Part shown: piece by piece, positions 15,301 to 46,542 of the stretch
How the letters are laid out: each line of letters opens with the position of its first letter
How positions within the stretch are numbered: position 1 is the stretch's first letter
Origin: a virus
Lineage: Duplodnaviria > Caudoviricetes
Direction: 5' to 3' (one strand)
DNA: 64,000 nt
IMG/VR virus record: IMGVR_UViG_3300037484_000435
Span: 288,001 to 352,000 of that record
Position numbers and translations under genes: made by a program
Notes under the pieces: generated by a model
What the model was told of the DNA's origin: nothing
The model's input: the letters and a program-made list of their open reading frames with translations, nothing else
Database searches by the model: none

Positions 15301-18300
15301 GTCGTTCCGTTCTAATCATCTCAGTTAAATTCTGCAGTGGTTGCACAAATCTATCCGACCCATGAGACACATATTCACGAAGTCTTTCTGCATATATAGA
15401 GTAATTCCTTTGGAGTTCAGGAGGAAGTGTTTCGATCGCCCTGCTGAGTTCTGTGTAAGTAGTATTTACATCCTTACCAGCCCCCGTTTTCATCTGATTT
15501 AGCATTTCATTCAAACGTTCAATTGTACTATAAAGACGAGTTTGGCCAGACACAGTTTCAAAATAATTAGCTTTACCCGCCTCAACATCTGTTATTAGTT
15601 TTTCATGGGTACCTAGCGTTTGTGCTCGTGTCTGTAAATCCGTATAAACTTCAGCGACAGGCTTGTTTCTGTAGTAACGCCGCATTTCAGGGTCCATCTT
15701 TACCTGACTTAGACGACTAACATTCTCTGCTCCCTGCTGCGTAAATTCTTTAAGCACCTCGGAAACTCTCCGCATCTCCGCATTTACGCGTTTTAATTCA
15801 GCCTGTAATTCGGTTCGTCGTACCGCCACATCCTCTGAGGTCCTAAACATTTCTTGGGGCTTCAAAGCAGTTTCTACAATAGTGTTCACTCTGTTTCGTT
15901 CTTGAACATGCCTTGTATAAAGTGGATCACCTCTACCCACATTATTCCTATCCATTTCTCTTATATTTGCTTCGAGTTCGTGCAAGCGGTGCCACTCTTG
16001 CTCTATTCCTAATTGTTTTAAAGGACTGACGAGAGAACCTTCCGCTGGGGTTCTTAACCCTTGTGTTAATGCTCCTCCACGAACAGCAAGATGCTCTTTT
16101 GCCACACCAGCCATAATAGTGTACGCACCCATAGGATCTCTAGGTAAAGCTGGTGATTGGATTCCTGAAGCAATCCCCCTGCGGTAGAGATTTTCTATGA
16201 TTTGCCCGCGGGTACGGTGCGTAGCAACACCTGGCCTCACATCGTCACCTAAGTAACTCTGTAAATCTTGTGGGCTCAATACATCACGAGCAGGGAAAAT
16301 GTCTGCGGCCAGTCTTTGTAACGCTCCCGCGTTATTTCGAGCTGATCTTACTCGTCGAGCCGATTCAAGAACTTCTGGGGTTCGCATGTCCACACGAGTA
16401 GAATCCACAACCCGTGTCGCCCTAGATCTCTCATCTAAGCCCCTTATAATATTTTCATACTCTCTATTGGCCTCTTCGGGCAATGGCGTGGTGTTCCCTA
16501 ATCCATGTGCCTCTCTAAGCATATTTTCGATTCCCATACGTCTAACACCAGGGGCTGGTCCACGTCGAGTTTGTCTGTAGAGGCGGTTCATTTCCCCTGT
16601 CATGGCTTCAGAACTTATATCAACACCACGCTCATTCACTATCGCTTCTGCCACTAAACGTCCCGCCCTATCCTGTTGTGTTCCGGGCATCATTTCTGCA
16701 TCAATAGCCCTCTCTCGTAATCTTCTGCGTAACTCTGCTTCAACACGGTTAGATACTGGTCTTAGTTGTGTTCCATTTATTTCCGGCATAGTTCTTGCCA
16801 TAATTCTATTTCGGGGAGCAAAGAATCCCCGATCTATCTGTTCCGTTCTAATTAAGGCATCGTGCAGTTCTTGTAGAGGTACTGTTGCTGCTGGGGTACC
16901 TGCGGGACCCGTTCTCCGTTTCATCGAAGCTTCGGCTTGATCTTGAGAAATTCTCCTATAAAGTCCTTCTTGTACATTTGCGGGTAAGGGCACATCTCCC
17001 TGATTTAAGGTGTAACCCTGTTGTTGCATATTTTGCCGTGCTTCATTAAGAACAAATCCAAGTTCTCCCCTACGGGACAATTGATTTTGTAATACATCTA
17101 TTCCTTGTTTTTCAGTAGCTATACGAGCATTACGCTCACGGCCAGTTTCTGCACGACCTTGTTGATTAGCAGGATTAGAAAGATTAGTTTGTAATGTTTG
17201 TAGTCTTCGGATCTCTTCATGTTGCGGACTCATTCCACCTTGAACTCTGCGGTCTATTTCATACTGTAATTCCGTTGCTAAACTTTGTCCTGATCGATCA
17301 GTCTTAGCTGCACTAGTACGTTTTAGGTATGCCTCCCGCTGTTGAATCTCTCGTTCAATGTCTGCCTCAGGAACTGTTATATCACCAACAGTAACTCTCG
17401 AACCCCCTCTTTGACGAGGAACTCCACCAGAAAGCAATTCTCTTATCTGTGCCAAACGCTTTTCTAATACACCAAACTTTCCAATATGTTTATCCCTAAT
17501 TTCTTCAAGCCTTCTTATCTCTGCCTCAAATTGCCCCGCTTGGCTAGAGAATAAAGACTCAATTCCAGCGCGTGCTCTCTTCAAATCATCTAGACGAGCT
17601 TCGAACTTAGCCCTGCTCTCTCCTAACTTCCTCATTATGTCGTTGTCGGTGGCCGACTCCAATGCCTGATTAGTGCTGTCTAACAACTTTTTGGTGCTCG
17701 CAATATACTTATCATTTCTACGTAAACGGCGTTCCTTAAGTTCAACTGACTCCATTAGGTGCTGTCTCGGTTCAGCAAGTTTTGCATCAGTATCCATAAT
17801 ATTACGAAAAGTGTCTTGATATTGAGTTCGCGTATTTTGTAAAATACCAAAGGACTCAATAATTGGTAATCTGTGTTGAACATCCTGGGGCGTCATACCA
17901 AAACGACTAGTGTTGGGTCCCCTTAAATTATCTATAGCAGACCCTGCATTTTGAACATTTGGCATCCCAACCATACGTGTAAAGAACTCAGAGTGATTTA
18001 GTGCATTAGGTCCCGCTGATATTGTAGGTAAACCAGTCTGTCCACGAGACCTACCTGCATAATACTGAGACATTAAATTGTCCATCCAAAATTGCTGAGC
18101 TCGACTCTGCACAATATCTAAGCCCCCCATACCAGGAAGTGTCCCTCTTTGCCTCATGAACTGTTGTCGCATGAATTGTTCTTCTAGTTCCGCACCAACA
18201 GGGGTGCCTTTACCACCCAATAACCCAGACATAAAATTCCAAACCTGTTTGTATTTAGGAGTAGCCACCGCACCTATCCCTCCAAACACAGCCTGTTCTC

Positions 18301-21300
18301 CAGAAGCTGTGGAAGGTGTTAACGACTGATTACCCATACCCAACTGGGCTAGATGAACTTGTTCGGCGGTCTGCATCATACGTTCCTGAATACCGCGACC
18401 AGTCATCCTCCTCGTGACTGCCCCATATATCCCACCAGCAGCCGCTACTCCAGCAGCAAGAGGTAAAGAGGCACCAGCTAATGTGGCCATTCCTCCAGCC
18501 GCCAACGTAGATAGAACTGGATGACCGGCAGTTAATCCTAGTATGGAACCTTTGATGCCCCCCAATCCGGTTAGAGTACCAATAGCACCTCCCGCCATAA
18601 AACGATTCCGAGCCCTAAATATATTTGAAGTTTGCCTATCCGTGCCAACCCCACTAGCTATCTCTTCCATTAGTCTCTGAGAATAAAATGGGTCAACACC
18701 ATAACGACCTTGTGCGGGCTTTGCCCATTGACCAAAAGCACCTGCTCTTATACCACCATAGGCCCCCAGAGCCGCACCAGCCTCAGGTGCAATGTGCATC
18801 AGTTCCCCAAACCCTGTTGGTCCCAATGCCCCTAGAGTTCCAGCAGCACCAGCAGCCATTAGGCCTGGCCTAAATCCGGTTCCTAAAGCGGCTCGATACC
18901 CAACGGAACCAAGAGCCCCTCCTATTAGTGTTCCAGGTAATCCGGTTCCTAATTCTAACGCGGACAGCCCAGCTCCCAACATAAAACCTCTAGTGCCTCC
19001 TCTCTCGGACAAGGCCCAAGGCATACGTTCTCCCGCCCTTACATATTGTGGAGCACCCGCTCTAGCCCAACGTTCACTTGCACGATCATATAAACCTTCA
19101 AGACGTCTCCCAGCAAAAGCTCGCCCTATAATTCCGGGTTGCCAAGCCCTAGCCCCCGTAATCTGGTCAACTACAGGTGTAGGTTGTAAAATATTTCTAG
19201 CAGCACTTACAAAGGGCGAAGCAACTCGGCTTATTGATTGAGTAGCCGAAACACCTATAGCGGATTCTACCCGTGCTCTTACATTTGTCCGGAGAAAATT
19301 AATGACGTTGTCAAATACACCAATAAACGATTGTTTACCTAGACCTTGTGTCAAACTTAATTCAATAAGTCTTAATGAATCAGCTAATTTAAGTGGCCAT
19401 TGGCTTAAGCGTAATGCAGTAGACACACCCAGATTATTAATACGGTCTGTAACAGTGGTGTCCGCAGCCCATGCTTGTAACCTATTGATACCATCTATCC
19501 AACCACGCATAGTCCTCCCTACTGCCCCCAATGCACCACTCAGCCCAAGTAAACTACGTTCAATAACAACCCCTGCAGTTGAGGACATACCCGGAAGACC
19601 ACCAATAGATGCTCCTGCGCGTCCTGCTAAACTAGACAATCCTTCTGCAGCCCAAGCGGTGGGACGAAGTGCCGTTAATTTTGCAGTTGTCCCAGTTATC
19701 GGAATCATCCTTTCTCTAACAAAACTAGTTATTCCCCCTAAAGCCTCACCTTTTCCCAAAGCCCCTGTAATTGCACGAACAAAATCATACGTCATCTGCA
19801 TATCTTTTTTAAGGTTACTCACATGGGGAAGTAAAGTCATTACACCCGCCAAACCACCTATAGCTGCCATTCCAACTGGCCCCAAAGCAGCTATTGAAAG
19901 AAGTCCCGCACCACCCAACATAGAGCCACCCAGCACATGCCCAGCCACACCAGTGCGAGGTCCCACAAGACCACCTAATGCAGAGCCTCCCCTAGTCCCT
20001 GCTCCAAGAAAACCACTAAACATAAGTGAGCTTATTACAGTAGGCATTAACCCACCTAAGGCGGCTCCTACTGCAAACCTGCGTAGTCCACTTCTCCCTA
20101 ATGTAGGACCTGCTGTCCCTTCCGGTTCTCCATTTACTAATCTCTGGTACCATCTGGAAGACTGTGCTGGAGTAGTAGCAGGAAGCAACTGCTGACCAGC
20201 CGAGGTTTCAAACTGCCGAGGGTCTCTCATAGCCCGTTTCCAAATATCACCTTGAAAATTAGGCTGAGTTGACCAATCGGCAAATCTAGGTTGCCGTTCT
20301 CCGTAGCGTTTTGCATCTGTTATGAGGTTCTCTAGAATACGAGGGTCGCCCAAATTTGTTTGTGTTGGAACTGGATGTGTTGCTAGGAAAGATTCGGGTA
20401 ATCCTTTTACCAATCCTCCCACACCTTGGAAAGCTCCAGGATAAGCCCGTGTGATCAATTTAAAAGCCATATAAGCAGCAGCAGCAGTAACCGCCGCACC
20501 CATAAAACTCATGCTTTGCGACTGCTCAATGGAAGCTCTAAGCAAACGAGAACGTGGGGCCAACTGGTCATCACTGCCTGAACCTATTACACCACCAGCT
20601 GGAGCTGCGGCCCGCATGACTGCTGTGTTGTCCGCGATTTGTCTTAACCAATCTGAGTGGTTCAACATAATACGTCTATCCCAATCCGCAGATTGTGATA
20701 AAGATTTTAAGAGAGAATTACCAGCCTCAGTAGCCTTTAGGATATTCCCACCAAAGAATTTCTCCGCAACTTGACTGCCTAGATACGCCCCAACACCAGC
20801 TTGTAGCGGTCGAAGATAGCGACTAGGCTCTGGCATTCCTCCTTCCATAATTGCTCTAGCCCGTGTAGCTTCTCTTTGTAACTTGTCTCGTTCAGCCTTT
20901 TCCTTTTTCCACTGTACCAGATCCCTTTTAGCCAAAAACATTGGATCAAATCTATCCTTCATGGAAATCTCTTCTATACCAATTAACTTAGAAAGCCTAT
21001 CCTCCCCAAACACGTTACCCAAGGCGTTGTTTATCCTTCGTCCTATATGAAGGTCAGATATTCTTTTGCTTATTCGACTTGGAAGATTATTAGTTAATGA
21101 GTTAATACCCTCCATCCAAAGACCACCCAAATCAAAATCTTTCCAAACTCTCTCGGCCATGGGAAACTCGGGTTCTGGTCGGCTAACGGCAGGCGGCCGA
21201 GGTATATTCCCCCATCGTCGTTGTTGTTCCTCCATAGGGGTTCCTAGTCTCCTATTAGCAGCGATTGTCGCGGTTTCTCTCTCAAAGTTTGGTACGGGCA

Positions 21301-24300
21301 TACCAACCGTTTGCTTGGCCCAGTCACCCCAACTGATAGGTTGTTCACCCGCTAACCCCATAAACTGTCTTAAATGAGTTCCCCAAGATGCTGTTGACTT
21401 TAACTTATCTCTCTCTGAAGTGGGTCCGCCGACGAGGGTTCTTCCAATGTCTGGAAGGAATGAAGTTAAATCATAAAGCGATCCCACTGTACCTCTCGCT
21501 GCCCATGCTGGAAAACTGTCTGGTTCCTTCGGTTGGCCCATCATTTGTAAGAAATTTTCTCTATCCTGTTCTCCCAATAAATCTTCACGTAATCCCGACT
21601 CAGGCATAAACCCTGCCGGTGTGAATCGCTTAGTCTTTTTAGCTCTCTCCGCTACCGTCCTTAATCCACGCTCTCGCTTATCAAAATCATAATAATTTTC
21701 TACCATTGCTTCTCTTAGTGGATCTTGATAGGGCTTTACATAACCGGCGTCTTCTTCAGCCACTCTCCAAAGAGGGGATGGTTTCTGCCAATCAAATCCC
21801 CTATCCTCCCTTACTCCTATCGCCCTAAGAAATCTATCTCCCAAATGTGAACCTTTATCCTTGTAGGTACTTTCATAAGAAGAAAAATCGGGGGATTTAG
21901 TTACGTAATCCATGGCCCCAACGATATAGTCACTTATCCCCTTACCTGTTTTAGAAATTGCTCCAGAAACTTTTGTTTCAACGGAATCAGAAAGACCTTC
22001 GGCATCTTTCCCCAAATCTCTAAACCAACCACCCAGATCGAGTCCAATAGTCATTTTACCCAAACCGATAAGATCAGTCCACGTCGACCAAAGTTTGTCT
22101 ATAGCTTTGGACACCACATCCGCAGCGGGCCCGACAGCTTCTAAATCCATACTAACCGGTTTCCAATTCTGTGATAAGTTAGACCATGCTTCAGATTCAA
22201 TATCTACTGCAGGGGTTTTTACTCCGATGTCCCCAGCCTTAGTCTTGGGGCCTAGTTTACTAGTATAATACTGTTGCGCTTTTTCAAGGAACTGCTGATC
22301 CCTTTCTTGTGGCGAAGTAAATAAATCTTCAAAAGCACCCATCCAACCAGACAAACCCTTTTTCTGTGTAAATTGTTTTCCTACAATGGGTTCCCATTTT
22401 TTGTCAAAATTGGTAATCTTTGTTTGTGCATATTCGACAAAGCCTGGAAGTGCATTAGATATGGCCTCCGACGGCACTTTTTGCTTTAACAAGTTAGAGT
22501 TCGGTTGCCCCTCGACAAGCCTTTGCCCAGAAGTAGAAGCCAGTTGTCTATACTGTTCTGCAAGCTTTAACCTCTGAAATCTTTCTGGTTCCGATAAGTT
22601 CTTCTCGTTAGCAGAAGCTAAAGTCTTCTTATAATCCGCTGTATATTTATCGTAATCTGATAGTAGTTGTTTGTCCGATTTATTCGCTGTGGCCGCAGAC
22701 CTATTTAAATCTTGTAATTCAGAAATAACTTTCTCAATTAAATGTAGTTGTGAAGTTTGTAAACCAACAAGTGCCGCATCCTCCTTCTTCCCTTCTGGAG
22801 CTGTACCTATAGATCTTAATATTCTATCCACATTTTCTTTACCTAAACTCTCCCCGAGTCTCCCACCCAATTGCTCCTTTAAGTCTTCTGCCATAAGACG
22901 GGTGCGGGTATCGGTACCAGCCAGAAGTTTCTCTGTTTGTATATAACGTTGGCCACGCATTTCAGTTTCTGACTGACGCTGAGTTACACGTGCGTACTCC
23001 GGATTAATGATACCTAGCTTTTGTTCTTCGGAAAGTTCGGCCCACGCTTTTGGTTTGGTAGGCATCTTTACAGGTAACCTATCCTCACTTTCAAAACCAA
23101 CTTTAACACGGCGTGCTGCTACCTCGGCCCGATCTTGGGCTATTGTTACTTGCTCATCAATTTTTGCTTTTGCAATAGTGTTGAATGTATTCTCCCATTC
23201 CTCTCGGACCTGTATTAAAAACTCTAACTTACGTTTTTTTACTAAAAGGTCCTGCATCTCTTTTATCTTACTAGCACTCTTATCAGCACTAGCCGTGTCA
23301 GAAGTATACAGTTTCCATTGCACATCCATATCCCTGATTGCTTCAGCCACTTCCCACATCGCATCTTGTGCTTTCCGGCTACCCTCCACTTCAAACAAGA
23401 ATTTTTCCCCCAGTTTTAAAGCCTCATGTCCCTGAAACTTAGGCATAAACATAGCGGCCCCACCACCAGCGTACTGTTTAGTTTTTTCGTACTCTTTGCC
23501 TATGTCAAACATACCAGCCTGTTTACGGGACCAAGTTTCGATTTTACCTTGTAAGTTTTCCCAACCAATTCTCCGTTCCTCTAAACCTCCGGGGGCACGA
23601 CCTTGGGCATAGGGAAGCTCGCCGGGCTCGGGCATAATCAACGGCATAGCTTTTTCCGGAGAAAGCGCACCTGTCTTATAGGCCTCTTGGGTTAATTGTG
23701 TCCACCCCATTGTGTCCCCTGGCTTAATACCCTTTGCTCTGGCTGATTCTACCTCTTGATAAGCTATCTTAGTCATAGTGGTCCAATCTTGTGGTTCTTT
23801 CGTGTTAAGGATTTGTTCATTGGCACCCTCACCAACAGCACCAACAGCCACATAATACTTACCCTCACCAGCACTAGTTGCAACCAATGCCTTAGGTTCC
23901 TGCATTGCCCCACGTGTAACCCCTTCAGTAATAACTTCTTTTGCTAAACCTTGTTGTTGTAACATCAAGTTCCAACGTTCTTGTCTAGCCAAAAAACGTT
24001 TAGCAACTGCAGATTCTTCTTCTCCCCCTGTTTTTGGGGTAGCAGCCTCTATCCGCTTAGCTTCGTCTTTAACCCACCCCATTACACCCTTAACTGTATT
24101 AGATAGAGTTGTAAAGGAACCTGTTATTACAGTTTTTATATCTGAAGTTCCTATTGAAGATAAGAATGAAAATGCGCCTTGCACCTTATTGGCGATGTCT
24201 GGGCTAACTGCTCCGATAGAGGAAACTATAATATTTGAGATGCCACGAAAAGCACTACTCAGACCTTCAGCTATGATGTTCCCCATTCCCTTGGTTGCAG

Positions 24301-27300
24301 AAACAAGATTTCCTAGTAATCCTCCAGTCAGTTCGTTATAAAAACCCCCAATAACCCCTAAGTCTTCTTTACCTACTCTTCCAAACGCATCCTTTAGATT
24401 ACCAAATATAGCGTCCCTGATAAAACTACCTATATCAGTAATAAAAGTGGCGGGTAATCCTACTGTTGTTAAGCCTGATTGAATCAATCGGTAAGCTTGG
24501 TTAGCATAATCCTTTACCCCTTCACCAATACCAGTCATTACTTTTATTAAATTTTGAATGTTTTCATTACCCAAAGACATCCGTAATGAATCCAAGACAT
24601 TATTTTTCAAATCACCGAAGAAACTCATTAATCCTTCGGAAATAGTCAAAGCCAAATCCTTTAATACTTTTTGTATATTAGCAGTTCTAGTCTCAGAAAA
24701 CATTTTAGAAATTAATGCTCCGCCAGATTCTGCTGAAGATATTAATGCTGCTGCTCCAGTGATGGTTTTGGCGTACCACTCGGAAATAACTCTTCCACCT
24801 GAATTTATCGCCGCATTAATTGCTCCTGTAAATTGGTCTGCTTGAGGTTGATACTGGTCAAGCATCCCATAAAGCTCTTTTCCTTGTGGAACCCCGAGTC
24901 TCTCAGGTAAATTAGATAAGGAAACATACTGTTTAGAAACCTGATAATTGCGACCTGTAAGCGCATCGTATCTATTTTCACGACCAAACATGTCCCCGTA
25001 ACTCTGCGCTGGTTTGGTGGTTATAGTTTCTTGGAGTTTCTCTAAATTCCCTCCAGTAAGCTGTTCAGCTACCTGCCGCATAGTGTCTAAATTCCTTCCA
25101 GCCTTTACTTCAAAAAATTTATCCAAGCCTTTGTCGCTAGTTAATTTCATAAAGTCACCAGCAGTAGTACCTTTTCCAACTCCTAAAATATCTTGCTCTA
25201 CTTTCATCATGGCGGCATCTAATTCAGCGTTAGCGTCATCAAGCTTCTTAGAGATATCTTTCATACGTCCGGATAGAAATGGTGGGATCATTCCAGTTTG
25301 TGCCCCACCTTCGTACCCAAACTTCCCAGTCACCCCTAGATAAGGAACAAATCTCTGAGTGTTTATAGTTCTTAGTGGTGTAGCTCCCAACATTTGGGCC
25401 TTTTCTTGCGCAGCTTTTAATTCGCCCATTTGTGAAAGCAATGCTTGCTGTTTTTCGTAAGGAGTTTTAGGCAACAGTGCTTCAGACCATTGCTTTCCGA
25501 CTACCGGTATAGTTTCAAGTGCTGATTGTAAAGAGCCCCTTACTTGATTCGCCCCAGTCCCAGTTGGAAATATAGTGCCTGCCCTAAGTTTTGCAAGATC
25601 AATTTTTTCCATGTTTTGTAAAACATTCAGCTGTGATTGAAAGACATCTAATAAATTACGGGCCTTAACAGTAGTGTCAAGTATTGCATTACCAAACACA
25701 TCATACCCTTTTGCTAGGGTTGGCACCATCTGAACACTAGCACGAGTAGCCTCATCCTCTGCCTTTTTAAACTCCGCTATTTTTGTCACCACAGACTTAT
25801 AGTTCTTTGACATGCCTTCGCTATATACCAGCCTATCTCGTTCCTTTTCTGCACCGGAAGGAAGGTTTGGGCCAGCGGCTGGTGTAGTTAATTGTTTTTC
25901 AGTTTCCAGCAATACCTGTCTTTTGGTTTCCGCGTCTGTCCATTTCTTTTCTAAATCCGACATTTCGGTAAATTGTTGCCGGATCTGTCCTGGAGCATTC
26001 ATACGTGTTTGGTAACGACGCAACGTTGATTCTGGTCCACCAGCCACATCTTGTATCTTTTCTCTGCTAGAGTAGGCAAATCCAGCAGCTAAACCTAACG
26101 GAAGTAGACTTCTTATAACTCCAGTCCCAGCCCCCGCAGCTGTCCCCATAACTGCGCCCATCACCTTTGACGCGAGAGAGATAGAACCTATTGCTGCAGC
26201 TAAGGGTAATAGTTTATCACCAGAGTCTCCCATCAACCCCAATGCTGCAGTAACACCAGCCAGAACGAGGCCAAGATTGCCAGCTGAGGACGACATAGAA
26301 GAGAACATCGAGTTAAACGTCCTACCTGTGGCCAGAGTCAAATAAGCCATCTTACCTAAAGTGGTAGAAGCATCCCCCAAACCTCCAATGTCTTTTACAC
26401 TTTCGACCGCCCCTAGTGTACTTCTAATGGGAGATACTGCGAATTGAGTAATACCAGAGACGGCACCTGTGGCACCAGAACTTAGTCCAAAATTCTGTAG
26501 TCCACTCATTACCTTCTCGATTTGACTAGAAAATGTTGCGAATGTACCTAGTCCTAAAATAATCTGTTTAATACGATCGGGAACCAATGTAAAAGCCCCA
26601 ACCAACCCTCTGGTAGCATCCGTTAAAACTTTCATTGGCTCAATAGCAAGCTTTCCGAAATCAGTGTACATTTCCTGCATAGATGCTCTTAATTGCTGAT
26701 ACTTTGTATTAAGTGTGTCCAACTGCAACTCCAACCTAGCCTCAGTAGCTCCTTGTGAGTTCATTGAATCAGAAACCGAATCTTGTGCTTCCTTAAAATT
26801 GTCCATCAAAGTAATAAATGCGTTATAATGACGGGCACCAGCAATAACGCTAGCATAATTTTGTCTTTGAGCATCCGACATTGTTTGCCATTTGACATTT
26901 AACTCCTCTAGGAAACGCATGCCGGGTTTTAATTCACCACTCGGTAACAGGGTGTCCATCTTAAGTTCATCTTTTAATTTATTTCTTACAGCTGAGGTCT
27001 GCAAATTTTTAAACATGAACCTTAAGGCAGTACCAACCTCCTCCCCTGTCTGACGTGTCACAACAGCAATAGCCGTGATTATACCATTAAGTTCGTGAAA
27101 ATCTACACCAGCAGTTCTAGCGGCGGATCCAGCTCGAAGCATACCACTTGCTAACTCCTTAGCTGTTATTGCGTGCTTAACGTCAACATTTATCCATGCA
27201 TCTAAATATTTTTGAGCGGCGCCCATCTGCTCACCGTATTGTTTTGTAGCTGCAGTCAAGTACTCAGTAACCTCAGCAGATTTCATGTCAGTAACTGTTG

Positions 27301-30300
27301 CCGCCATAACAGCCACACGAGTTCGGTCAATGATTTCAGCTTGTTTTAAACCTTGCTGACCAAATACTACCATAGCATCTAGAACATCTTTGACATTAAC
27401 CCCCATACCAGTGGCCATACCAAAGGCAGCATCTCTAATTTTATTCAAATTAGTAACTTGTGGATCTGTGACCTTTGCTATATTCATTATGGCCGTCTCT
27501 ACATCTGCCATTGTGGAGACCATTTTTTTGAATTCAGTCGCTACAGTACCTACAATTGCAGCGGCCCCGCCCCACTTGGTAATAGTTTCTACAGCCCCAA
27601 AAAATGTCTGTGACTCGGCAACTTGTTTATTCATGTCGGTAAAGTTTACTTTAACTCCGTTTGCCGCCAATGAAGTTTTAGTTAAGTCCGCTCGAATCTT
27701 TTCTAATACAGCCCCAGCCTCATCTTTAACCTCTAAGTTTAAAGACATTGCTTGGCCCTCTTTCATATCAGGACTAGTAGCAACCTTTTGTTTGTAGTAT
27801 TCTAGTAATTGCTTATTTCCAGAAACCTGTTGTGGAACAGACAGCCCCATAGGTATGATAGGGGCAGCCGCCTGCATCATCGGGTCAAACCGACCTGAGA
27901 ATTTCGTTTGTTGTGCGGGTCCTCGGAATTGTTCTTCAAGGGACTTCCAATATCGGAGACTCTCAACAGTAGTATTGGGGTCTCGACCTGCCTCGTGCAC
28001 TGTGGAACGTAAATAGCCATGAACACCAGATATATCTTTTGGTACATTGGTTGAGGTCTTTAAAATCCCACTCATTACTTCTTGGTAAATAGAAGTGGGG
28101 CTAATTCCGGTAGGCTCTAAACTCTGAAGAGCTTCTACTGCCTTCTTAGATACACCCTCTAACCCTTTGGACAGGAAACCCCCCACTGAGATTACATCAC
28201 TGAAAGCTTCAGGACGTCCGAGGGAAACATTCTCACGATCTCCAGCACCTAGGAAACCACCAGACCGGTAAGTTCTAAAAGGATCCGATAGAGGATGTAC
28301 AGCTGTTGAGGACCTAAGAGCAGTAGCAACATATTTGATGATATATTCATCGATTTCTTTACTTAAATGGGCAACAGTATTTTTGTTGCCGGCTTGTGCC
28401 GCGGTATTTAATTCATTCCGCAAACCTTGTAAATGGTTCAAATAAGTTTCAGATATATGGGCCAAAGTTGCTTTCTGGGATTTTGCGACCTTACTTTTAT
28501 CAGAAGTATCCACAGTCACAGTATTTTGTAGAGATTGGAAAGAACCCAATACTTGGTCTAAAGTTTTACCTTGCATGCTACTGGGCACTACATCTTTTAT
28601 CTCTGATGGTAATCTCCAAGGAGAACGAGCAGAAACAGGAGTATACCCCCGCAACGTAGGCTCCTCAAGCTCTGCTTCTTGTGCTGGACTATAAGAAGAG
28701 CTTCCCTCGTAATAATCAAGCCGTGCTCTTTCTCTTTCCTTTCTAAGTAAAGATGTTCCAACCTCTTTCCCAAAATATTGTCCTGCCAGTAAACCTCCTA
28801 TACCAAGACCTATCTTGCTTATGGGACTAACACCAGCCTTGAAACCTGCAATACCACCAAGTAATGCTCCACCTCTCGACATCCAAGTTCTATTCGTTTT
28901 TAATTTATCCACATATTCTGGGTCCATATACTCAGGGTAGAGAGATTCCATACTACCCTCATCTGCTAAATCTGCCCTCTCTTTGTCTGAAAGCCACTTG
29001 TCCACCTCGGCACCGCGTGGTCCCTGTTTACCGCCTATACCAAAAACTTTTCTTTCAATTTTCTCACCAATATGGCCCCCAACAACACCACCACCAAGAC
29101 TACCAGCCAGTGCACCTAGAACACGGACTAAGGTTGCCGCCTTAGGCCCGCCGCCGCCCATAGATCTTAAGGCCGTTGAGGCTGGAGCAGTTAATCTAGA
29201 ACCTAGAGCAGCCCCCATAGCAATAGTTGCGGCCTGAACAATCTGCTCAGGTATTTCGCTAGCTATAGCCCTAACGGGAGAAACCCCTTGCGCAACTTTC
29301 TCCTTTACATCGTAAGCCCCAACTGCAAAATGACCTAAAGCTGGAATCATCTTAAATGCGCCACCGGCCACACCTTTTAATGCATCAGTAAAATCACTTT
29401 GTCTCAAAGCTTGTCCCACATCAGACATACCCGTCCCGAAAGCCTCAATTGGCTGTGTAACTAGGCCCCTGAGCCCCCTAATACCACTTAATAAAGCACC
29501 AGGTCTACGTGATAAACCAGATACACCACTAGAAGCCATTACTCCAGACGGAACCCCCCAGCTTTCATTATAAGGCATACCTCCTAGACCAAGATGTTCA
29601 ACCGCAAATTTACCTATACCCCTATTTTTTGAACCCAATAGATTACCAGGACCGTAGATTTCTCCTACTTGTCTATTAAATTCTTCCATAAGACCTGTGC
29701 CAGTCACATCTCTACCGGGGAGCATTTGTTTTGCTGATTCATACACACTAGGTAGTATTTTGAATGATTTTTCTAAGCCTTCCTCGGTAAAATAGCGTCT
29801 AGCCATCAAAGCTCTGGCCCCCATACCCAGACCTTGGGCAGTTGATTGTGCAGCACTAACCGCCTGTGGAACACCATAGGCGAGCAAGTCTACACCACCG
29901 TGGGTAACGTCTGCCGTACTTCGTAAGAATTTCTGGGATACAGGGGGTGGAGCAGGAACCTGCCCAGTAGACATGTGGTAAACCATTCTATTTGCAGCTG
30001 CCTTTTTTATTGCATCTGGACTTCCTTTTTGACTAATAGCTTCCTGAACTGTTTTCTCATAATCTAACGCTGATTCAGCTGGGCCAAGACGCTGCGCGGT
30101 ATCCATCCATTTAGTGGTGTCAAAAGGTGACTCTTTAAATGAATCTGGATATTCCATCATCCTGCTAATCTTTTTAAATTCTAAATCGATTAATTCTCTT
30201 ATGTTTTTTTCCGTTAACCCACGAGACCTAGTCCGTCCTGCTTCCAAACCCAATCCTGTAGTACCCCGATATGTAGGAAATTCCTTTAGACCAGCACCTA

Positions 30301-33300
30301 ATCCAGACAGTTGTTCAGTAATCATATTTGACACATTTTCATCTACACCAGCAATGGATTTGTAAGCACTATAGGGAGATTTCATAAGGGTCCAAGGCAA
30401 GCGTAATCCGAAAGATGTTGCCCCATACCCCAATTGTGCGCCGCCTTTCGCAACACTTCCTAAGGCGTGTGTAAAACTTGGGGGAACTTCATTTCCCCTA
30501 GAAAATAACTTTTCTAACCCAGTGTCCTTCAAAATACTTTCAACAATATTCTGTGGTATACCGTCCTTACCCATCGTTCCTCTCGCCAGTGCACCTAAAT
30601 TCTGCCGTAATGCGAAAGCAAGACCCCTAACAGTTGATGGGTGCATACCAACATAATCAACTGGCCGATCAATAGATTTGGTTGGTTCAATCCTCATCCC
30701 GTAAGGGTCCTTATTCTCAAGAAGTGATTCTTTAGTATCAAACCTTCCCAAGGTTATGGGTTCTGGCATATTTATTGTGTAAGGGCCAACTTTAGCTTCC
30801 CCCTCTAAACTTAGTAATGCATTGCCGTGGGTTTTCTTTCTCAACAATCCCACCAAATGTGGGTCAATACCCTCTAGCATTCTCTGTGGGGCACCTAAAA
30901 ACCTCTTCTCTCTTACCCCAGGATGAGATAAGACTTCTAGTGCTTTACTTACTTCAGATGGATCAAACCCTAAAGCAGCGGAGACTAGCCCTGGGGTTCC
31001 AAGAGATACCTCAAATTTACGCGACTTGTCTTCTGCTTCCCACTCAAATGTTTTCTTCTTGAGAGATTTGGTCCCCTCGAACAAAGGCGAGTAGGCCTTC
31101 ATAGCCAAATCCTGCTGTAATCTTCCTTGCAAAGCCTGAATTTCTTGAGTGTTACTTTTCGACATCTTCATTTCTGGGTGTCCAGCAAGGATTTCTTGCA
31201 TGGCTTCCCAACGTGCGGCGGGGGATTTACTAAAAGGCTTCCCAACCTCCCCTGCCCTCTTCTGGGCCTGTTCAAACTGTCTTTGATAAACATCCTTAGA
31301 TGTACTAGACATTGCCTCAGAGATAAATTTATCTACAAGAGGACTCGATACAGCCCTAGTCTTCCACATTCCCTTGACAGATTCTGGGGCTTCATTAATA
31401 TCTAAGTGCGTTTTTTCATGTGCGTATGTTTGTTGGATTGACCTTCCAATACCTTCTTTTTCAGTTCCTTTAGCGGACATATAAGCCTTAATAATTTCTG
31501 GTGGCATGTATATCTTACCGCCCCCACCAAGACCCACAGCAAAACCTTGTTTTAAGTAATTAAGGTTACGGTCTTGTGACATACCACGCTGTCTAAAAGG
31601 TTCCGCTGATACCGTCAAGTTCCCACCCTTTAGGAGGTTAGCAACCGTGTCAGTTCCCTTGGCAGGAGCAAAAGACGGTAAACCTTCGAGAGAATTCTCC
31701 TCGGGCGTTCTAACAGACATTTGTTGAATTTTTGCAGCTGCTGCAGAAATACCCAAAGAAGCTGGAATACGCAACACCATTCTACTTACTTCCCCACTTT
31801 GGTCTGAAAACCATAAACCTAATTGAGAAATTTTATCTATAATAGCAGAGTAGTGTTTACCTAGATCTACACTAGGTACATTTTCAGATACGGCGTCATA
31901 TGTTCTGTATAAGCCCGACACGACATCATCATACATCTTACCAACACCACCATAGAAGTTACTCGCAAAATCCTCAACTTGTGGTCGTTTAGAGAGTATA
32001 CCAGGAACAGTATCCATAGCAGTTCCCCAGACCTTTTTAGTAACATCCGTTGCATAAGGAAAAGCGGACTCATCCCATTTTCTAAAGGTAGGTCGTGCAT
32101 AACCTTCAAAATCTTTCATACCAGACCAAGCTGCTGAACCAGCGGCATTTACACCACGCTTAGCCAAATTCGTAACACTATCAGGAATATATTCAGAAAT
32201 TTTCCCCACTAAGTCTTTTGTAGCTGACCAACCTTCACCTAAAAGAGCTGTACCCGACTTAACTATTTCTGAAGATCCTATAGTCTTTATAGCTCCCACA
32301 AGAGCTTCAACAATAGGAGCAATCATTGGGTAACCAGTATAAGCTGTAGCCCCAGCCATGGTTCCTGCGCCCAAACCACCAAGGCCCAGCATTGTCATCG
32401 AAGCAGGTAACGCATATGTTGCTGCAAGAGCTGCTCCGCCACCAATCAGGGCCGCTTTACCTAGCCCACCAGCCATGCGTCTCCATAAAGGCTTCTTTTC
32501 ATCAGCAGGAGCATTTAAACGAGGTTCATCGAGGTTTTCCTCTCCTTCTGCGGGCGTATTGCTACGGTAAGTTTTTTCAGATGGAGTAAATAATCCCCCT
32601 ATCCCACCAGTTACCGCACCCCATAGCGGGGCCGCTTTTATAACACTGGAACGAGAATCTAGAAAACTTTGTGGTAATAGATTGCTACCTTCAAGCAAAC
32701 TTGACGCACCATACCACCCAGCACCAGCAATTGAAGACACAGCAGCACCAGAAAGAGCACCTTTTAACATTTTCCATATAGGTCTTTCTTCATTAGTAGG
32801 ATTCAACTGTGGAGTTCTTGACACCCCCGCTGATGTTAATCCAGAAAGGGCCCCAACCGCTGCTCCCGCCCCCGTAGCTAAAGGTATGTGTTGGAGACCT
32901 AGTCCATAAGCCATACTTCCCACTATAGGGGCAACAGCTGCCCCTATCAAAGCCGATCTCCCTGCACTTTCTAAAAACCCAGTAGGTTCCTGACGTAAAG
33001 GAGCGTAAGCTTGGGTACCAGGTGTTAATCCTCTATTCATAGCAATGTTTGCTAGTCTATCGGCGGGCTTGTTTTCCTCACGAGGAACATAAGAGAAAGA
33101 CACATTGTCAAATTGTGCTGCTAGCACATCCGCCTGAGCCTTAAGTTCTTTTATCTGCTCATTCTTCACCTTGAACTCATTTCTCATCTGTCCTACCATA
33201 ACTTCAGAGTCTGATCTTACTTTTATGTTTTGAGCGGAATTCTTAAGAGCCTCCTGTAAACCCATAATGAGGCCTTGGTACTCAGCAGCCATAGAAGTCA

Positions 33301-36300
33301 TTTCCCCAAGATATTTATTGACTTCTGCAATAGTCTGTCCCTTAGGATTTAATAGGACAGCACCAGCACCAGAAGGTCCCGGATTACCACGGGACCCAGC
33401 ATCAGTATATAGTGTATAAGGTTGTTGTGCAGGGGAATAATTCTGTAGATTTTTTCGCATAAAGGAAAGTTCTTCTTGTGGGGATGTCCCGATGGCCTCT
33501 CTTCCGGCTTTTTCTGCTACTAGCTCTTGTACCTTTGCGAGTTCATCCAAAACTTCTTGATCCTCATCAGTACGGAGACCTCCAGCTAGAGCCTCTTCTA
33601 GGGCATTTGCTGGCTCTTCCTCCCCCCTATCTCCGTATTTTTGCATATAATAATTCTGTATTTTCTTTGTATCTATACCAGGAAACTCTTTTCCAGACAT
33701 GATATCCTGCGCGATAGTAGGAGCGGAATAATCTATTACAGCATGCCCTTTTTCATGTTGCATTACGTTCATAAAAGCACGCATCTCTGCTCTATTTGTA
33801 GGGGAGAATAAACGGATATTCCCATCTTGGTAACGGCCTTCCCCTGCACCAAGCGTATCGTCTATCTCAACGTTAGGACTAAAACCATAAAACTGTTTAG
33901 CCCTTTCAGGATCCCTTTCCTCCATTGGCCTTACTTTGGAAACTAGCCACTGTCCTTTTTTAGTATCTTCGCCCTTCGGCTCGTAATTAAGAATATTGTA
34001 AGTACCATCAACCAAACCTTTAACGCCTTCCAACCTTACTGTGACATACCCTTCTTTTACACTTTCCAAAGTAGCCTTTCCTGTATCATAAGTTGCCATA
34101 TGACCAGCTCCATAAAAACCTTTGGGAATATCATATTCTCCTTTCTGGTAATAATCTATTGCGTGGTGTGCTGTAGGACCAATTGCTAATCTAGGCTTTC
34201 CTTTTTCAGTAGGCATAAACTCTGGTACCGCCCATGACTGAAGCTGACCACCAACCTCAATTCTCATATCATGGTGTGGCCCTGCCCTAAAGGCATCGTG
34301 TTTATGAACTACAAATCGGCCCACATCCCCTTCTTTGGCTTCCCCAGGAAACATAAATCCTGCCTCTTTAGAAATAGGCACTGCCTCTGGGTACTTAGGA
34401 GCTTGTCTCCTTGTATTTAGAACTAGAACTGGATCGTAAGGTAACTCAGGCATTCCTTTACCAAATATGCCTTTGCGTAATTCCTCTTGTGTAGCTACAA
34501 CTGCATCTTTGGCAAATGAAGGTATTGGCTCTACACTGGGAGCCTGGAGTAGGAACTTAGTTCCTTTCTTAAATTCTCCTGCCCGCTCAGGGGGCTGATA
34601 GAATTTATCATCTAAACCTTTAAGGTATTCCTCCATACGCTTCTTAGAGGTTTCTACAACGGGCCAATCCTCTGGATAGAGACCTTCCTGCTTTTGGACA
34701 AGAGATGGCGAAAAATTCTTGTAAGAGTCCTGATCTATCTCTTCTTCAGTTTGATATGCGGGAGAATATGATCGCTTTCCTTCTAACACCCTCGCAAAGC
34801 GTTCTTCTATTCTCTGTTCCGCGGATTCTTGTGTTCTCCAAGGATAACGGTTTTCCTCATTAACCAGATAATCTTTGGTTTTGAGTTTAAGCATTCTTGG
34901 GAAACCTGTTTTTGGATCAATTTCACCCAAGGCTTTAGCAACTACACCCTCCTCTATGCCCTTAAATTGATCTTGTTGAGTATACACCTTTTGTGCTAGG
35001 TCTTTATCAACCTTACCACGATAAAGTTCATCTACAGTCTTCAACTTCAAGTCATCTGCTAGTTTTTTGAACTCGTCTACAGGGAGAGGTTTATTAGCAA
35101 CCTTGGCATCAAACCAAGCTAACTGGTCTTTCTTTCCTCCCCATTCACCAAACAAATCTACTCGATGTCCTATATCTTTTGAGTATTTCTTAAGTTCAGG
35201 AGCCAGCCCTTCTTCCATCTGTTCAATAAAAGGTTTGTATAGTTTATTAGCAGTATCGGGGTCTAATACTTTATTGCGTGTAGCATAGCCTATCTCGGTA
35301 TTTCCCCAACGTAGAGGAACAGCACTCATTTTGATTTGATGACCATGACTCTTATACTGTGCCGATCCCTCAACGTCTTGTTCTAAGAATTTTGGGTCTT
35401 CAAAACCTGTTTTAATATGGGGGTAATCGGCTGGACTAAACCCACGAACAGCACGCCTGATGTTTTCAGGTGCTTTTTCTCCAAAAGCTTCTCCAGGTGT
35501 AAATGGGGGTCCACCAAAAGGCCCTCCAGGAGATGGCATAGTAGTGGATAATCCACCCCTAACGGACTTCTCTTCTATTGCTTTAAGAAACTCATTTCTA
35601 GATTTCTGGAATCTCATTGTATAAAAGTCTGGTGGTTCTATATCCAGTTCCTTCAGAATATTCTCCATTCTCTTCTTGAATACCATATTAATATAGCGAG
35701 TGTAGCCACGATTCTCACCATATATTCCTTCAGCATAAAGGGCTTCCAGAGGCTTTTCAGATTCGCTAGTTATCTTCTTAGCCTTCTGATCAAAATGAAA
35801 TATACTCTGCCAATCTTGTGATGTTAAATCAAAGGCACTATTAAAAATCTTTTCAACATCATTTCTTACTTTATGTGTGGGTTTAGATAGAATCTCTTCA
35901 AGGTCAACACCCCCACCAGCACTTGGCCTAAAAGGCCACATGGACTGCTCAGCGGAACGTGGTATTGCGGTATTCACACGAGATTCAACTTGGCTTAGCC
36001 GTAGATCTTCCCAGTCCTTTGGTAATCCTGCTCCTATGTGTTCAAGAATCTGCCCCTGGCGTTCCTTTATCACATTATTTATAAAATGTGTAACTCCTCG
36101 GCTTCCTCCGTAAACGCCCTCATTGCGCAAGGAAGAAATGACATCCTGATATGGTGTATCCTCGGAAGGAGACTTCATCCCACGAAGAACTGGGTGTGCT
36201 TTGTACACGCTCTGCCAATCTTCTTGGCTCAGCGTTTCGGTATTTTCCTTTACCGCTTCCTTCCAACTTTCTTTAAATAACGGGGAGAATGATGCAACAA

Positions 36301-44552: not shown

Positions 44553-45647
44553 TTATTCTTTGGTGAATTTTTTACTCTTTGAAATACCCTTAGACTTTTT
44601 AAAAGTAACGCCGTCTTGTCCTGGGTCATCTTTCAAAGAGATATCGGCAACATTCCCAGCTTTAGGATTTGCCCGATCATACTGCCTATCCAAGTATTCT
44701 GGATGCGACTGCATAATTAATCTGGTGCTCATCTTCTCCGCCGTAGAGCTACCATATTTTTTCTCGGCCCGCCTTTCTGACCTGTCTTTCGATCTTTCCT
44801 TATGCAAGTCTTCCATATACTCGTCTAGTGCTCCATCATCTTGGATGACCCAGTCATCTGGCTGGTCCTCTGGAAGCATTTCATAAATAGATTGATAATA
44901 CCCTGTCCACCATAATAAGTTCTTTTGGTCAGGTGTCAATTCTATAGACGATTTTGGAAATAAATGAAGATTACCTTTCTGTGCGACTAAATAGTCCAAC
45001 CGCCACAAATTACTTCGGGCGATATACCTGATTTCTTCTGTCGTATGTCCAACTAAATATCTTAGAAACTCAGACAGAAGTTTGTTTTTGAGCTCAACTT
45101 TCCTTTCTACCTCCTTGCAATAGGTTAGGTAATTGTCCCATAATAACTCATCCGTTTCGGGGTCAAAACAGCAAGCCCATAACATGTAGTCATATTTGGC
45201 TTGTCGTGCTCTCCGTTCAGCAGTATTTGACATCATTATCTCGCGTTTCTTCTCGGCTTGAAATAATTCTTCCTCTAACTTATTTATACTCTCCTGAATG
45301 TAAGGCTTATAAGTAACATCAATATCTACGTCTGACATTTTTCTTTTATTCATGTCAAGTAATTTATGAATAGTTTCAACTTTTTTATCATCCTTTTCAG
45401 TCCAAATTCCGCGCTCACGCATTAGTTTGTCCATTTCAGATTCATTCATAATGTTGTCTTTTTTGGCACGGAACATAACACGGCGTTCCTCTAAATTCGC
45501 AAGGAGGGTGGTGTGACGGGAAGGATAACGGAAAATAACAAAAATAGGGAAATCCTCAGAGAAAAGAGAAACCTCAACAAGTCTTTGAGAAAAACATATC
45601 TGTTCTATTGTTAGTTGTAACTCGTCAAGAGTCCAATCAATAGACAT
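44553..45647 (-). CDS. Putative tail assembly chaperone, long paralog (G-T-like), directly upstream of the TMP
   Basis: Position immediately before the TMP. The N-terminal 2/3 is similar to 47859-48566 (MSNTAERRARQAKYDY...D.ETDELLWDNYLTY). It has an extra C-terminal domain (RYIARSNLWR...YYQSIYEM...PDDWVIQDDGALD). ATG at 45647 is preferred over the GTG at 45659. Confidence 0.65.
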   Translation of the reverse strand: MSIDWTLDELQLTIEQICFSQRLVEVSLFSEDFPIFVIFRYPSRHTTLLANLEERRVMFRAKKDNIMNESEMDKLMRERGIWTEKDDKKVETIHKLLDMNKRKMSDVDIDVTYKPYIQESINKLEEELFQAEKKREIMMSNTAERRARQAKYDYMLWACCFDPETDELLWDNYLTYCKEVERKVELKNKLLSEFLRYLVGHTTEEIRYIARSNLWRLDYLVAQKGNLHLFPKSSIELTPDQKNLLWWTGYYQSIYEMLPEDQPDDWVIQDDGALDEYMEDLHKERSKDRSERRAEKKYGSSTAEKMSTRLIMQSHPEYLDRQYDRANPKAGNVADISLKDDPGQDGVTFKKSKGISKSKKFTKE

Positions 45648-46542
45648 GCAAATCACCATACTTTATAATTCTATAACTACTCAATAGATCCCATTTTCTT
45701 GATAACCCAAACTGAACACTATTTCGACAGTCAATTAAAAATTTCTCGGCACGATTACCCCCTAGAGTATAATAACTATAAGTCCCAAAGTCTTTTACCT
45801 GACTAATCCGAGGAGCACCATAAGTGGAATCACAAAAATTCTTAATCCAAGCCAACAGATATCTGGTTCCACAAAAGCCTGTTACTAACGTGGGTATATT
45901 GTGTTTTTTATTCCAACCAAGGGAGACCCACCCATCACCATCAAGAAGTCCTTTAAGATAGGGCAGTATCAAATCATTATCTAATAACTTAGGGGGACGA
46001 AGTGTATAGGTCTTTTGCGGAGTAATAGAAAAATTGTTATTTAAATCTATATACCACCCCTTAATCCCAGAAATACGTATTTCAGCAAAATAGGAATTTT
46101 TACTAAAACCCCTACTTTTTCGAGAATGTATTTCCCCAGAAAAATGAGTCTCTGCTTTAAAAGATCCCAAAACAGAAGCATCCTTCTCAGCCAAACCTAT
46201 AGTTAATTGGTATCTATTTGCAGATAAGTTACCATCGGCAGCAATAAAGCCTGCCCAGTAAGAGTTGTGTGTATTCGGTTCGGAAAAGTAATCCAAATCA
46301 ACGGTTGTTCTGACTCGTCCTAAAGACAAGGTGTGGGAGGTATCACCTTTTATACCCAACCTCAGAAGTCTATTACTAACCGCACCTTTGCTCTTACCAA
46401 GTTGTTGTGAAATTTCTTTACGATTAACCTTTTCATAAAGAGATAATAGTAGCCTATCTTCTTCGGGAGTCCAATGTTTATACCCCTTAGTATTCTGAGG
46501 ATTGCGTGATTGGAGTTCATCTAAGGACCATTCTACTGCCAT
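45637..46542 (-). mobile_element. Free-standing LAGLIDADG homing endonuclease with one Myb/HTH-like N-terminal repeat
   Basis: SYWAGFIAADG and YLKGLLDGDG motifs; HWTPEEDRLLL repeat; C-terminal LSRKW. Confidence 0.88.

What the first reader, a model, noticed from the sequence alone, without database searches (positions are those of the whole stretch)
26550..27580. Tape-measure core sits 5,650 aa into the protein: a tail-length paradox
Seen: the TP901-like core, usually near a TMP N-terminus, starts at about aa 5650 and is followed by about 9,060 aa. Established: the lambda-type ruler gives about 0.15 nm per residue, and the longest well-known tail (Thermus P23-45/P74-26, about 0.8 um) uses a TMP of about 5,000 aa. 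Calculation: whole protein about 2.2 um, core-to-end about 1.4 um. Inference: either this phage has a record-length tail or much of the chain is folded cargo. Since TMP N-termini lie at the head end, the RNAP half may be stored in or near the capsid.
Basis: partly seen in the sequence, partly recalled or inferred. Interest (0 to 1): 0.72.

Follow-up and report, generated by a model that had tools for sequence, protein, structure and literature searches.

The report
Giant tape measure predicts micrometre tail
A 545-kb sediment phage has one 14,711-residue tail "tape measure" protein with the conserved ruler core in the middle and enzymes built in, which by published tail-length scaling predicts a tail of roughly 1.3 to 2.6 micrometres, well beyond the current record of about 0.8 to 1.

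Summary
Observation confirmed. One 14,711-aa ORF (window 44530..395, minus strand) carries an intact PF10145 tape-measure core at aa 5,701-5,898, with 9,010 aa behind it. It is the only tape measure found in the 545-kb genome. No sheath gene was found, and the gene sits in the canonical slot.

The deep core is a family trait. More than 100 metagenomic relatives with a built-in RNA polymerase have the core at aa 2,400-4,100. The two nearest relatives have 13,617- and 12,316-aa tape measures with the core at 5,497 and 5,630.

The first 3,840 aa (enzymes) are conserved at 46-63% identity with almost no indels. The part behind the core is fast-evolving, varies in length (6.7-9.0k aa), is almost free of known domains, and is rich in helices and glycine zippers. 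The whole chain has 2 cysteines.

Two published cases suggest built-in enzyme segments count toward tail length: P23-45 (800 nm for 5,002 aa, polymerase included) and TM4. T4 structures place the N-terminus inside the tube with DNA pushing down, so capsid storage is unlikely.

Best reading: the whole chain lies non-native in the tube and the tail is micrometre-scale. This is not provable without virions.

The scan has already reported this protein's enzymes, and the same question on 7,618- and 8,234-aa relatives in other genomes.

The parts
395..44530 (-). Single ORF of 14,711 aa (1.61 MDa): the tape measure protein
   Evidence: Nearest relatives have 13,617- and 12,316-aa ORFs with the same N-terminus.
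41981..44530 (-). aa 1-850: conserved helical N-terminal module, found only in the giant clade
   Evidence: 53-63% identity to G001, P0174 and P0180. No match in other tape measures.
38048..41899 (-). aa ~878-2,161: RNA-polymerase-like part shared with the 6.4-8k relatives; DFDGD at aa 1,997-2,001 (window 38528-38542)
33044..35353 (-). aa 3,060-3,829: RNA ligase, LigD 3'-phosphoesterase, HExxH motif (aa 3,592) and RNase H
32309..32956 (-). aa 3,859-4,074: first glycine/alanine-rich hydrophobic cluster, closing the enzyme cassette
31406..31420 (-). Second conserved HExxH motif (aa 4,371)
   Evidence: Present in all three full-length giants.
24581..28333 (-). aa 5,400-6,650: conserved tape-measure core region; PF10145 proper is at window 26837-27430
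18413..20077 (-). aa 8,152-8,706: long glycine-zipper, arginine-rich membrane-type region
   Evidence: AlphaFold2 predicts no secondary structure there.
14033..14923 (-). aa 9,870-10,166: glycine-zipper cluster, conserved with G001
8651..10933 (-). aa 11,200-11,960: second conserved tape-measure module ('island'), ending in the chain's only two cysteines (CxC at aa 11,927 and 11,929)
   Evidence: 44-47% identity to G001. Shared with polymerase-free 3-5k tape measures, where it lies at ~aa 2,050-2,500. The CxC is conserved.
398..8641 (-). aa 11,964-14,711: C-terminal 2,750 aa without a detectable counterpart in relatives; holds the DnaJ J-domain (aa 12,582-12,638, window 6617-6787) and a glycine-zipper at aa 13,136-13,166
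44553..45659 (-). 368-aa gene directly upstream, in the chaperone slot; syntenic in G001 and G002
   Evidence: No family match.
47859..48566 (-). 235-aa gene, second chaperone-slot gene, syntenic in relatives
49924..51609 (-). 561-aa candidate tail tube protein
   Evidence: 58-64% identical in G001 and G002. Language-model features resemble tail-tube clusters at 0.80-0.90, which is a lead only.

Best explanation
This is the phage's one true tape measure. The conserved TP901-type core lies about 5,700 residues in because this lineage has built a roughly 3,000-residue enzyme cassette into the front of the protein, between a conserved N-terminal tip and the core. The cassette holds a single-chain RNA polymerase, RNA ligase, 3'-phosphoesterase and RNase H, and is followed by about 1,600 residues of tape-measure-like linker. 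The 9,000 residues behind the core are a fast-evolving string of helices, glycine-zipper membrane segments and a few conserved modules. I infer that the whole chain, enzymes included, is held as a multimer inside the tail-tube lumen in a non-native, cysteine-free, extended state. It would be expelled C-terminus first ahead of the DNA and refold in the cell, possibly helped by host DnaK recruited through the built-in J-domain. On that model most or all of the chain counts as ruler. The tail is then micrometre-scale: about 1.35 um if only core-to-end counts, and 2.2-2.6 um if the whole chain counts at 0.15-0.175 nm per residue. A trimer packed solid would still fill about 0.47-0.6 um of lumen. 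What is shown: the ORF, the core, its uniqueness in the genome, the gene order, the family pattern, the conservation pattern and the cysteine depletion. What is inferred: location in the lumen, refolding and tail length.
For: The gene is real and sits in the canonical slot. The order is 561-aa tube candidate, 235-aa gene, 368-aa gene, tape measure, then 832-, 354- and 240-aa genes, and this order is conserved in two relatives. It is the only tape-measure match in the genome, and no sheath family matched in it or in five relatives.

The deep core is a lineage trait. Polymerase-free relatives have the core at ~600-1,050. One polymerase-bearing class has it at ~2,400-2,580 and another at ~3,500-4,100. 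The giants have it at 5,497, 5,630 and 5,701.

The front is constrained and the back is plastic. Residues 1-3,844 are 63% and 46% identical to the two relatives, with an offset change of at most ~30 aa. Behind the core, similarity is 22-47% in islands and otherwise undetectable. The part behind the core measures 6,686, 8,120 and 9,010 aa in the three giants.

Behind the core, the only known domain in this protein is the J-domain, and none was detected there in G001 (Pfam) or G002 (PDB sequence search only).

The chain has 2 cysteines in 14,711 aa, against 0.9-1.8% elsewhere in the genome. Relatives have 0-4, and P23-45 gp96 has 0 in 5,002 aa. This trait covers enzymes and ruler alike, as expected if the whole chain shares one fate.

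Enzyme domains also occur behind the core, where the chain must lie in the tube. Relative P0172 has a PolyA_pol head domain about 3,640 aa after the core (E 7e-18), and this protein has the J-domain there.

Published precedents support scaling with the whole chain. The P23-45 polymerase is part of full-size gp96 in virions, and its 800-nm tail over 5,002 aa gives 0.16 nm per residue with the polymerase included. Deleting 114 aa that carry an enzyme motif from the TM4 tape measure shortened the tail by 20 nm. [quoted passage not shown]

The mass per unit length of lambda (my recollection: 853 aa, 150 nm) and of P23-45 gives 2.3-2.6 um for this protein.
Against: There is no virion image, proteome or expression data. 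No tail longer than about 1 um has been described in the papers I could search. The model requires a polymerase of more than 1,200 residues and other enzymes to refold after ejection. AlphaFold2 on two 1,200-aa stretches behind the core gave only low-confidence helices and coil (pLDDT 37-39), so a continuous coiled-coil ruler is not shown. Residues 8,001-9,600 lack helical periodicity. Two conserved HExxH motifs between the enzymes and the core could mean proteolytic processing. The P23-45 argument rests on rounded published tail lengths, and that protein is not detectably related in sequence. The copy number in the lumen (3 or 6) is unknown.
Confidence: 0.55

Rival explanations
1. Only the part from the core to the C-terminus acts as ruler. 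The enzyme front part is cut off, possibly by the HExxH motifs at aa 3,592 and 4,371, or it sits compactly at the top of the tube. The tail would then be about 1.0-1.4 um or less.
For: The length of the front part is conserved (5,497-5,701 aa) while the part behind the core varies. The back parts of polymerase-bearing relatives (3,000-4,260 aa) are about as long as those of polymerase-free ones (2,400-5,200 aa), as if the cargo had been added on top of an existing ruler. The HExxH motifs are conserved.
Against: P23-45 keeps the polymerase in full-size protein in virions, and its tail fits the whole chain. The TM4 enzyme motif counts as ruler. A folded 600-kDa front part times three cannot fit a ~4 nm lumen and would block the tube terminator and head joining (for the assembly order). 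The enzyme cassette is as cysteine-free as the ruler.
Confidence: 0.22
2. The chain lies in the tube but much more compactly than a single extended helix per chain, as hairpins, helical bundles or molten globules. The tail would be long but not far beyond the record, at about 0.5-1 um.
For: The volume calculation allows 0.47-0.6 um for a solid trimer. Large glycine- and proline-rich parts have no predicted helices.
Against: Lambda (recalled figures) and P23-45 both carry only about 1.8-2.1 kDa of tape measure per nm. The TM4 deletion follows the standard rate.
Confidence: 0.13
3. One reading: the polymerase half is stored in or next to the capsid, and only the rest lies in the tail.
For: The tape-measure N-terminus points toward the head. 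N4-like and crAss-like phages carry virion polymerases, as mentioned.
Against: Tails are pre-assembled and capped before joining heads. After joining, DNA under 25-35 atm pushes the tape measure down, not up. The enzyme cassette is internal and preceded by an 850-aa conserved helical tip. Enzyme domains also occur behind the core.
Confidence: 0.07
4. The giant ORF is an assembly or annotation artefact, or a decaying gene.
For: Read depth is only about 6x, and only one run holds the sequence.
Against: A 44-kb frame cannot stay open by chance. Two independent records carry 12-13.6k ORFs with the same N-terminus and the same neighbours, and three further fragments exist. Independent contigs of the run match at 99% or more, without indels or alternative joints.
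Confidence: 0.02

Closest known systems
Thermus phage P23-45 gp96 (also P74-26, G20c, TSP4): tape measure fused to a virion RNA polymerase (Chaban et al. 2024, PMC10770324)
   Same: A giant cysteine-free tape measure with a DFDGD two-barrel polymerase in its front part, in a phage with a non-contractile tail. The polymerase stays in full-size protein in the virion, and the tail is extremely long.
   Different: gp96 has 5,002 aa against 14,711. It has no PF10145 core and carries an M23 peptidase that is absent here. There is no detectable sequence similarity. In gp96 the polymerase motif is at aa 779; here it is at aa 1,997, behind an 850-aa tip. This protein also carries an RNA ligase, a phosphoesterase, RNase H and a J-domain.
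TP901-1-type (PF10145) tape measures of cultured siphophages, e.g. Bacillus phages SPbeta (YomI), Slash/Stills and PBC2/Thrax
   Same: The same core family, at 21-26% identity over about 400 aa, and the same gene slot.
   Different: In those proteins the core starts a few hundred residues in (PHROG profiles). None was seen to carry enzymes in front of the core.
Uncultured 6.4-8.65k-aa polymerase-bearing tape measures of 200-300-kb phages
   Same: Shared polymerase part and shared core at 27-37% identity, nearly no cysteine, and the core in the middle of the protein.
   Different: They are about half the length. The polymerase-to-core distance is about 1,600 aa against 3,700 here. They lack the N-terminal module.
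Mycobacteriophage TM4 gp17 tape measure with an embedded peptidoglycan-hydrolase motif (Piuri and Hatfull 2006, PMC1796659)
   Same: An enzyme segment embedded in a ruler. Its deletion shortens the tail at the standard rate.
   Different: The motif is small (a 114-aa deletion) and acts on the cell wall. It is not a cytoplasmic nucleic-acid enzyme.

Membership tests
TP901-type tape measure protein (Pfam PF10145 PhageMin_Tail) | Family profile match above the curated cut-off | tested here: met
   92.8-101 bits against a cut-off of 33.2, positions 3-201 of 201. Twelve PHROG tape-measure families also match.
TP901-type tape measure protein (Pfam PF10145 PhageMin_Tail) | Gene lies between the tube/chaperone genes and the distal tail genes | tested here: inconclusive
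   The gene order is conserved in two relatives and the major head protein lies upstream. The neighbours have no family match. The tube assignment rests on a language-model lead only.
TP901-type tape measure protein (Pfam PF10145 PhageMin_Tail) | Only ruler gene of the phage | tested here: met
   PF10145 matches once; PF20155 and PF06791 give no match. Of 113 other ORFs of 300-4,999 aa, only one (398 aa) is cysteine-free.
TP901-type tape measure protein (Pfam PF10145 PhageMin_Tail) | Protein length sets tail length | not testable with these tools
   This needs virions or a deletion series.
Tape-measure-fused virion RNA polymerase (P23-45 gp96 type) | DxDGD metal-binding motif of a two-barrel polymerase inside the tape measure | tested here: met
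   DFDGD at aa 1,997. The polymerase part is shared with 38 of the 150 listed relatives.
Tape-measure-fused virion RNA polymerase (P23-45 gp96 type) | Sequence relationship to gp96 | tested here: not met
   blastp and phmmer find nothing significant, and gp96 lacks PF10145. The resemblance is in design and may be convergent.
Tape-measure-fused virion RNA polymerase (P23-45 gp96 type) | Polymerase present in virions as full-size protein and active on pre-early genes | not testable with these tools
   Shown only for P23-45.
Capsid-packaged ejection or cargo proteins (N4 vRNAP, crAss-like cargo) | Encoded as a protein separate from the tail ruler and packaged in the head | tested here: not met
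   The enzymes are in one frame with the tape measure in all three full-length giants.
Contractile-tailed phage (myovirus) | Tail sheath gene | tested here: not met
   PF04984 and PF17482 are absent from the genome, and PF04984 is absent from five relatives. A very diverged sheath cannot be excluded.

The most novel reading that the evidence does not exclude
This phage and its 12-14k-aa relatives build non-contractile tails of about 2.2-2.6 um, two and a half to three times the longest known viral tail. The lumen stores about 4.8 MDa of unfolded enzymes (polymerase, RNA repair enzymes). These are threaded into the host ahead of the DNA and refolded or pulled in with host Hsp70 through a J-domain built into the ruler.
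Probability: 0.3. Interest if true: 0.9.

Novelty: new variant of a known kind. Interest (0 to 1): 0.66.

Why it matters
If the standard ruler rule holds, these sediment phages have by far the longest tails of any virus. They would also make one of the largest single viral polypeptides I know of, at 1.6 MDa.

If the rule fails, the tape measure is a storage and delivery device for folded or compacted enzymes. That would change how tail length is read from genomes.

Either outcome is directly testable by imaging. Either would show how a phage delivers a polymerase and RNA-repair enzymes through a 4-nm tube.

There is also a practical point. Both large protein collections searched here returned nothing above 8,000 aa, so this clade looks invisible to them.

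Tried and rejected
- **Single-protein search in viral contigs:** the core found no close relative. An alignment of cores was needed.
- **Self-comparison:** no internal repeats, so the length does not come from repeat expansion.
- **Composition-based helix/strand propensities:** they did not separate the crystallised polymerase of gp96 from its ruler part, so I dropped them.
- **Hydrophobic periodicity:** it separates the two only weakly, at 11% against 23-30% of windows. I use it as a hint only.
- **AlphaFold2 without an alignment:** two 1,200-aa stretches gave pLDDT 37-39. They were too poor for fold searches, so none was run.
- **Front length against back length in 65 relatives:** r = -0.26, with Spearman not significant. 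The data are truncated by the apparent 8,000-aa cap and are not phylogenetically independent, so the result is inconclusive.
- **Translated searches against GenBank phages:** aa 6,401-14,711 gave nothing apart from two J-domain-sized hits.
- **Atlas features of the aa 11,150-12,000 module:** uninformative.
- **PHROG and Pfam on the neighbouring tail genes:** no assignment.
- **Contig of P0172:** it could not be fetched. The protein is too long for the look-up, and two pattern scans found nothing, so its upstream context is unknown.
- **Sequencing runs:** no RNA holder is listed. The one DNA run is probably the source sample, and its short contigs show presence only.
- **gp96 against this protein:** no similarity, apart from a marginal glycine-zipper match.
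- **C-terminal 500 aa:** no homologue in the family.
- **Complex prediction:** no job was sent.


Full report
**The object.** The window lies in a 545,322-bp virus record whose ends overlap by 146 bp. One ORF runs from window 44530 down to 395 on the minus strand and encodes 14,711 aa, or 1.61 MDa. It starts with GTG behind a GAGG site. It has no internal repeats.

Pfam finds five domains:
- RNA ligase at aa 3,060-3,216
- LigD 3'-phosphoesterase at aa 3,409-3,504
- RNase H at aa 3,704-3,829
- PF10145 (PhageMin_Tail) at aa 5,701-5,898
- a DnaJ J-domain at aa 12,582-12,638

Twelve PHROG tape-measure families match aa 5,576-6,283. A DFDGD polymerase motif sits at aa 1,997.

**Is it the phage's tape measure?** PF10145 matches once in the genome. 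Two other tape-measure families give no match, and two sheath families give no match. The order of neighbouring genes is kept in the two nearest relatives. That order is a 561-aa tube candidate, 235- and 368-aa genes in the chaperone slot, the giant ORF, then 832-, 354- and 240-aa genes. A major head protein lies upstream. The tube assignment is only a lead.

The core is not degenerate. The Pfam match is full-length, all 31 invariant columns of a 41-sequence family alignment are present, and identity to the nearest relative is 55%.

**Family context.** A search of 1.84 billion representative proteins with the core found 13,644 relatives. The best 150 fall into three classes:

| Class | Polymerase motif | Core position | Length behind core |
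|---|---|---|---|
| No polymerase | none | ~600-1,050 | 2,400-5,200 |
| Shorter polymerase-bearing | ~1,270-1,410 | ~2,400-2,580 | ~2,000 |
| Longer polymerase-bearing | ~2,050-2,480 | ~3,500-4,100 | 3,000-4,260 |

The polymerase-bearing proteins share both the polymerase part and the core with this protein.

Neither protein collection returned anything above 7,998 aa, which looks like a length cap. IMG/VR records reached through a core alignment show open frames of 8,053-8,654 aa. The two nearest relatives have frames of 13,617 aa (G001) and 12,316 aa (G002). Both start with the same N-terminus, and their cores begin at aa 5,497 and 5,630. Three fragments of further giants exist: P0174, P0172 and P0180. 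The deep core is therefore a lineage trait that grew stepwise.

**Anatomy by conservation.** Residues 1-3,844 are 63% identical to G001 and 46% to G002, with almost no length change. The core region (aa 5,400-6,650) is 38-55% identical. Behind it, similarity survives only in islands: aa 6,812-7,303, 7,866-8,104, 9,622-10,245 and 10,590-11,963. The last 2,750 aa have no counterpart in either relative.

The island at aa 11,200-11,660 is a second tape-measure module. It also occurs in polymerase-free 3-5k proteins, about 1,400 aa behind their core. The part behind the core measures 6,686, 8,120 and 9,010 aa in the three giants, while the front measures 5,497-5,701 aa.

Glycine/alanine-rich hydrophobic clusters lie at aa 3,859-4,074, 6,007-6,130, 8,152-8,706, 9,870-10,166 and 13,136-13,166. 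Apart from the J-domain, no known domain was found behind the core in this protein. None was found in G001 by Pfam or in G002 by PDB sequence search. P0172, however, has a PolyA_pol head domain about 3,640 aa behind its core.

AlphaFold2 without an alignment gave 60% helix for aa 6,400-7,599 and 42% helix for aa 8,000-9,199. It predicted essentially no strands, but confidence was very low.

**Cysteine.** The chain has 2 cysteines, a conserved CxC at aa 11,927 and 11,929. The genome's other ORFs of 150 aa or more average 1.76%, and its other giant tail proteins have 0.9-1.6%. Relatives have 0-4, and P23-45 gp96 has none. The depletion covers enzymes and ruler alike. I read this, by inference, as one shared physical fate for the whole chain: passage in unfolded form through a narrow channel and the cell envelope.

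**What published cases say.**
- In P23-45 the polymerase is part of full-size gp96 in virions. Its 800-nm tail over 5,002 aa gives 0.16 nm per residue with the polymerase included. Without the first 1,200 aa it would be 0.21 nm per residue, which exceeds the rise of a helix.
- In TM4, deleting 114 aa that carry an enzyme motif shortened the tail by 20 nm.
- In T4 virions the tape measure spans from the baseplate hub to the DNA end inside a ~40 A lumen. Its N-terminus is inside the tube, and DNA under pressure compresses it downward after tail attachment.

Together these favour embedded enzymes counting as ruler. They argue against the front half lying in the capsid.

**Numbers.**
- At 0.15-0.175 nm per residue, the whole chain gives 2.2-2.6 um and core-to-end gives 1.35-1.6 um.
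- The mass per length of lambda (recalled figures) and of P23-45 gives 2.3-2.6 um.
- A trimer packed solid would fill 0.47-0.61 um of a 3.5-4 nm lumen, and a hexamer twice that.

Unless the protein is cut or partly lies outside the tube, the tail cannot be short.

**Verdict.** The deep core is a family trait, and the chain does not divide cleanly into cargo and ruler. My best reading, at about 0.55 confidence, is that the whole chain lies in the lumen in non-native form and the tail is micrometre-scale. Rivals are a processed or excluded front part (0.22), compact packing with a 0.5-1 um tail (0.13), capsid storage (0.07) and artefact (0.02).

The design has one experimental precedent, P23-45, which is unrelated in sequence. 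I found no paper describing tape measures longer than 5,002 aa.

This scan has already reported the enzymes and the J-domain of this same protein. It has also raised the same tail-length question for 7,618- and 8,234-aa relatives in other genomes.

Noticed in passing
window 395-44530 (whole ORF); CxC at window 8744-8752: There are only 2 cysteines in 14,711 aa, against about 1-1.8% in the rest of the genome. The two form a CxC at the end of a conserved module and are kept in both full-length relatives. Relatives and P23-45 gp96 are equally cysteine-free.
   Followed up: partly
window 33743-33757 and 31406-31420: Two HExxH zinc-protease-type motifs (aa 3,592 and 4,371) are conserved in all three full-length giants. 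They lie on either side of the RNase H domain and the first glycine-zipper cluster, and could be self-processing sites.
   Followed up: partly
P0172 aa ~3,404-3,522; P0174 aa ~3,071-3,877: Other members of the giant clade carry poly(A)-polymerase/CCA-type nucleotidyltransferase domains. P0172 has one behind the core. P0174 has extra sequence that resembles it inserted in the front part. Cargo content therefore varies between close relatives.
   Followed up: partly
Neither large protein collection returned anything above 7,998 aa, while IMG/VR DNA holds relatives of 8,053-13,617 aa. Proteins above about 8,000 aa, including this one, seem to be missing from those collections.
   Followed up: partly
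window 45637-47748: Two homing-endonuclease genes sit between the 368-aa and 235-aa chaperone-slot genes. G001 and G002 have these two genes almost adjacent, with no room for an endonuclease.
   Followed up: partly
window 398-8641: The last 2,750 aa, including the J-domain, have no detectable counterpart even in the nearest relatives. The C-terminal end that should dock on the tail tip is not conserved in sequence.
   Followed up: partly
G000 ends (genome 1-146 and 545177-545322): The record's ends overlap by 146 bp, although the collection classes it as linear without end repeats. The assembly is probably circular or complete.
   Followed up: no
window 48888-49889: A sulfotransferase-like gene sits inside the tail gene block, between the tube candidate and the chaperone-slot genes. 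It is only weakly similar in G001.
   Followed up: no
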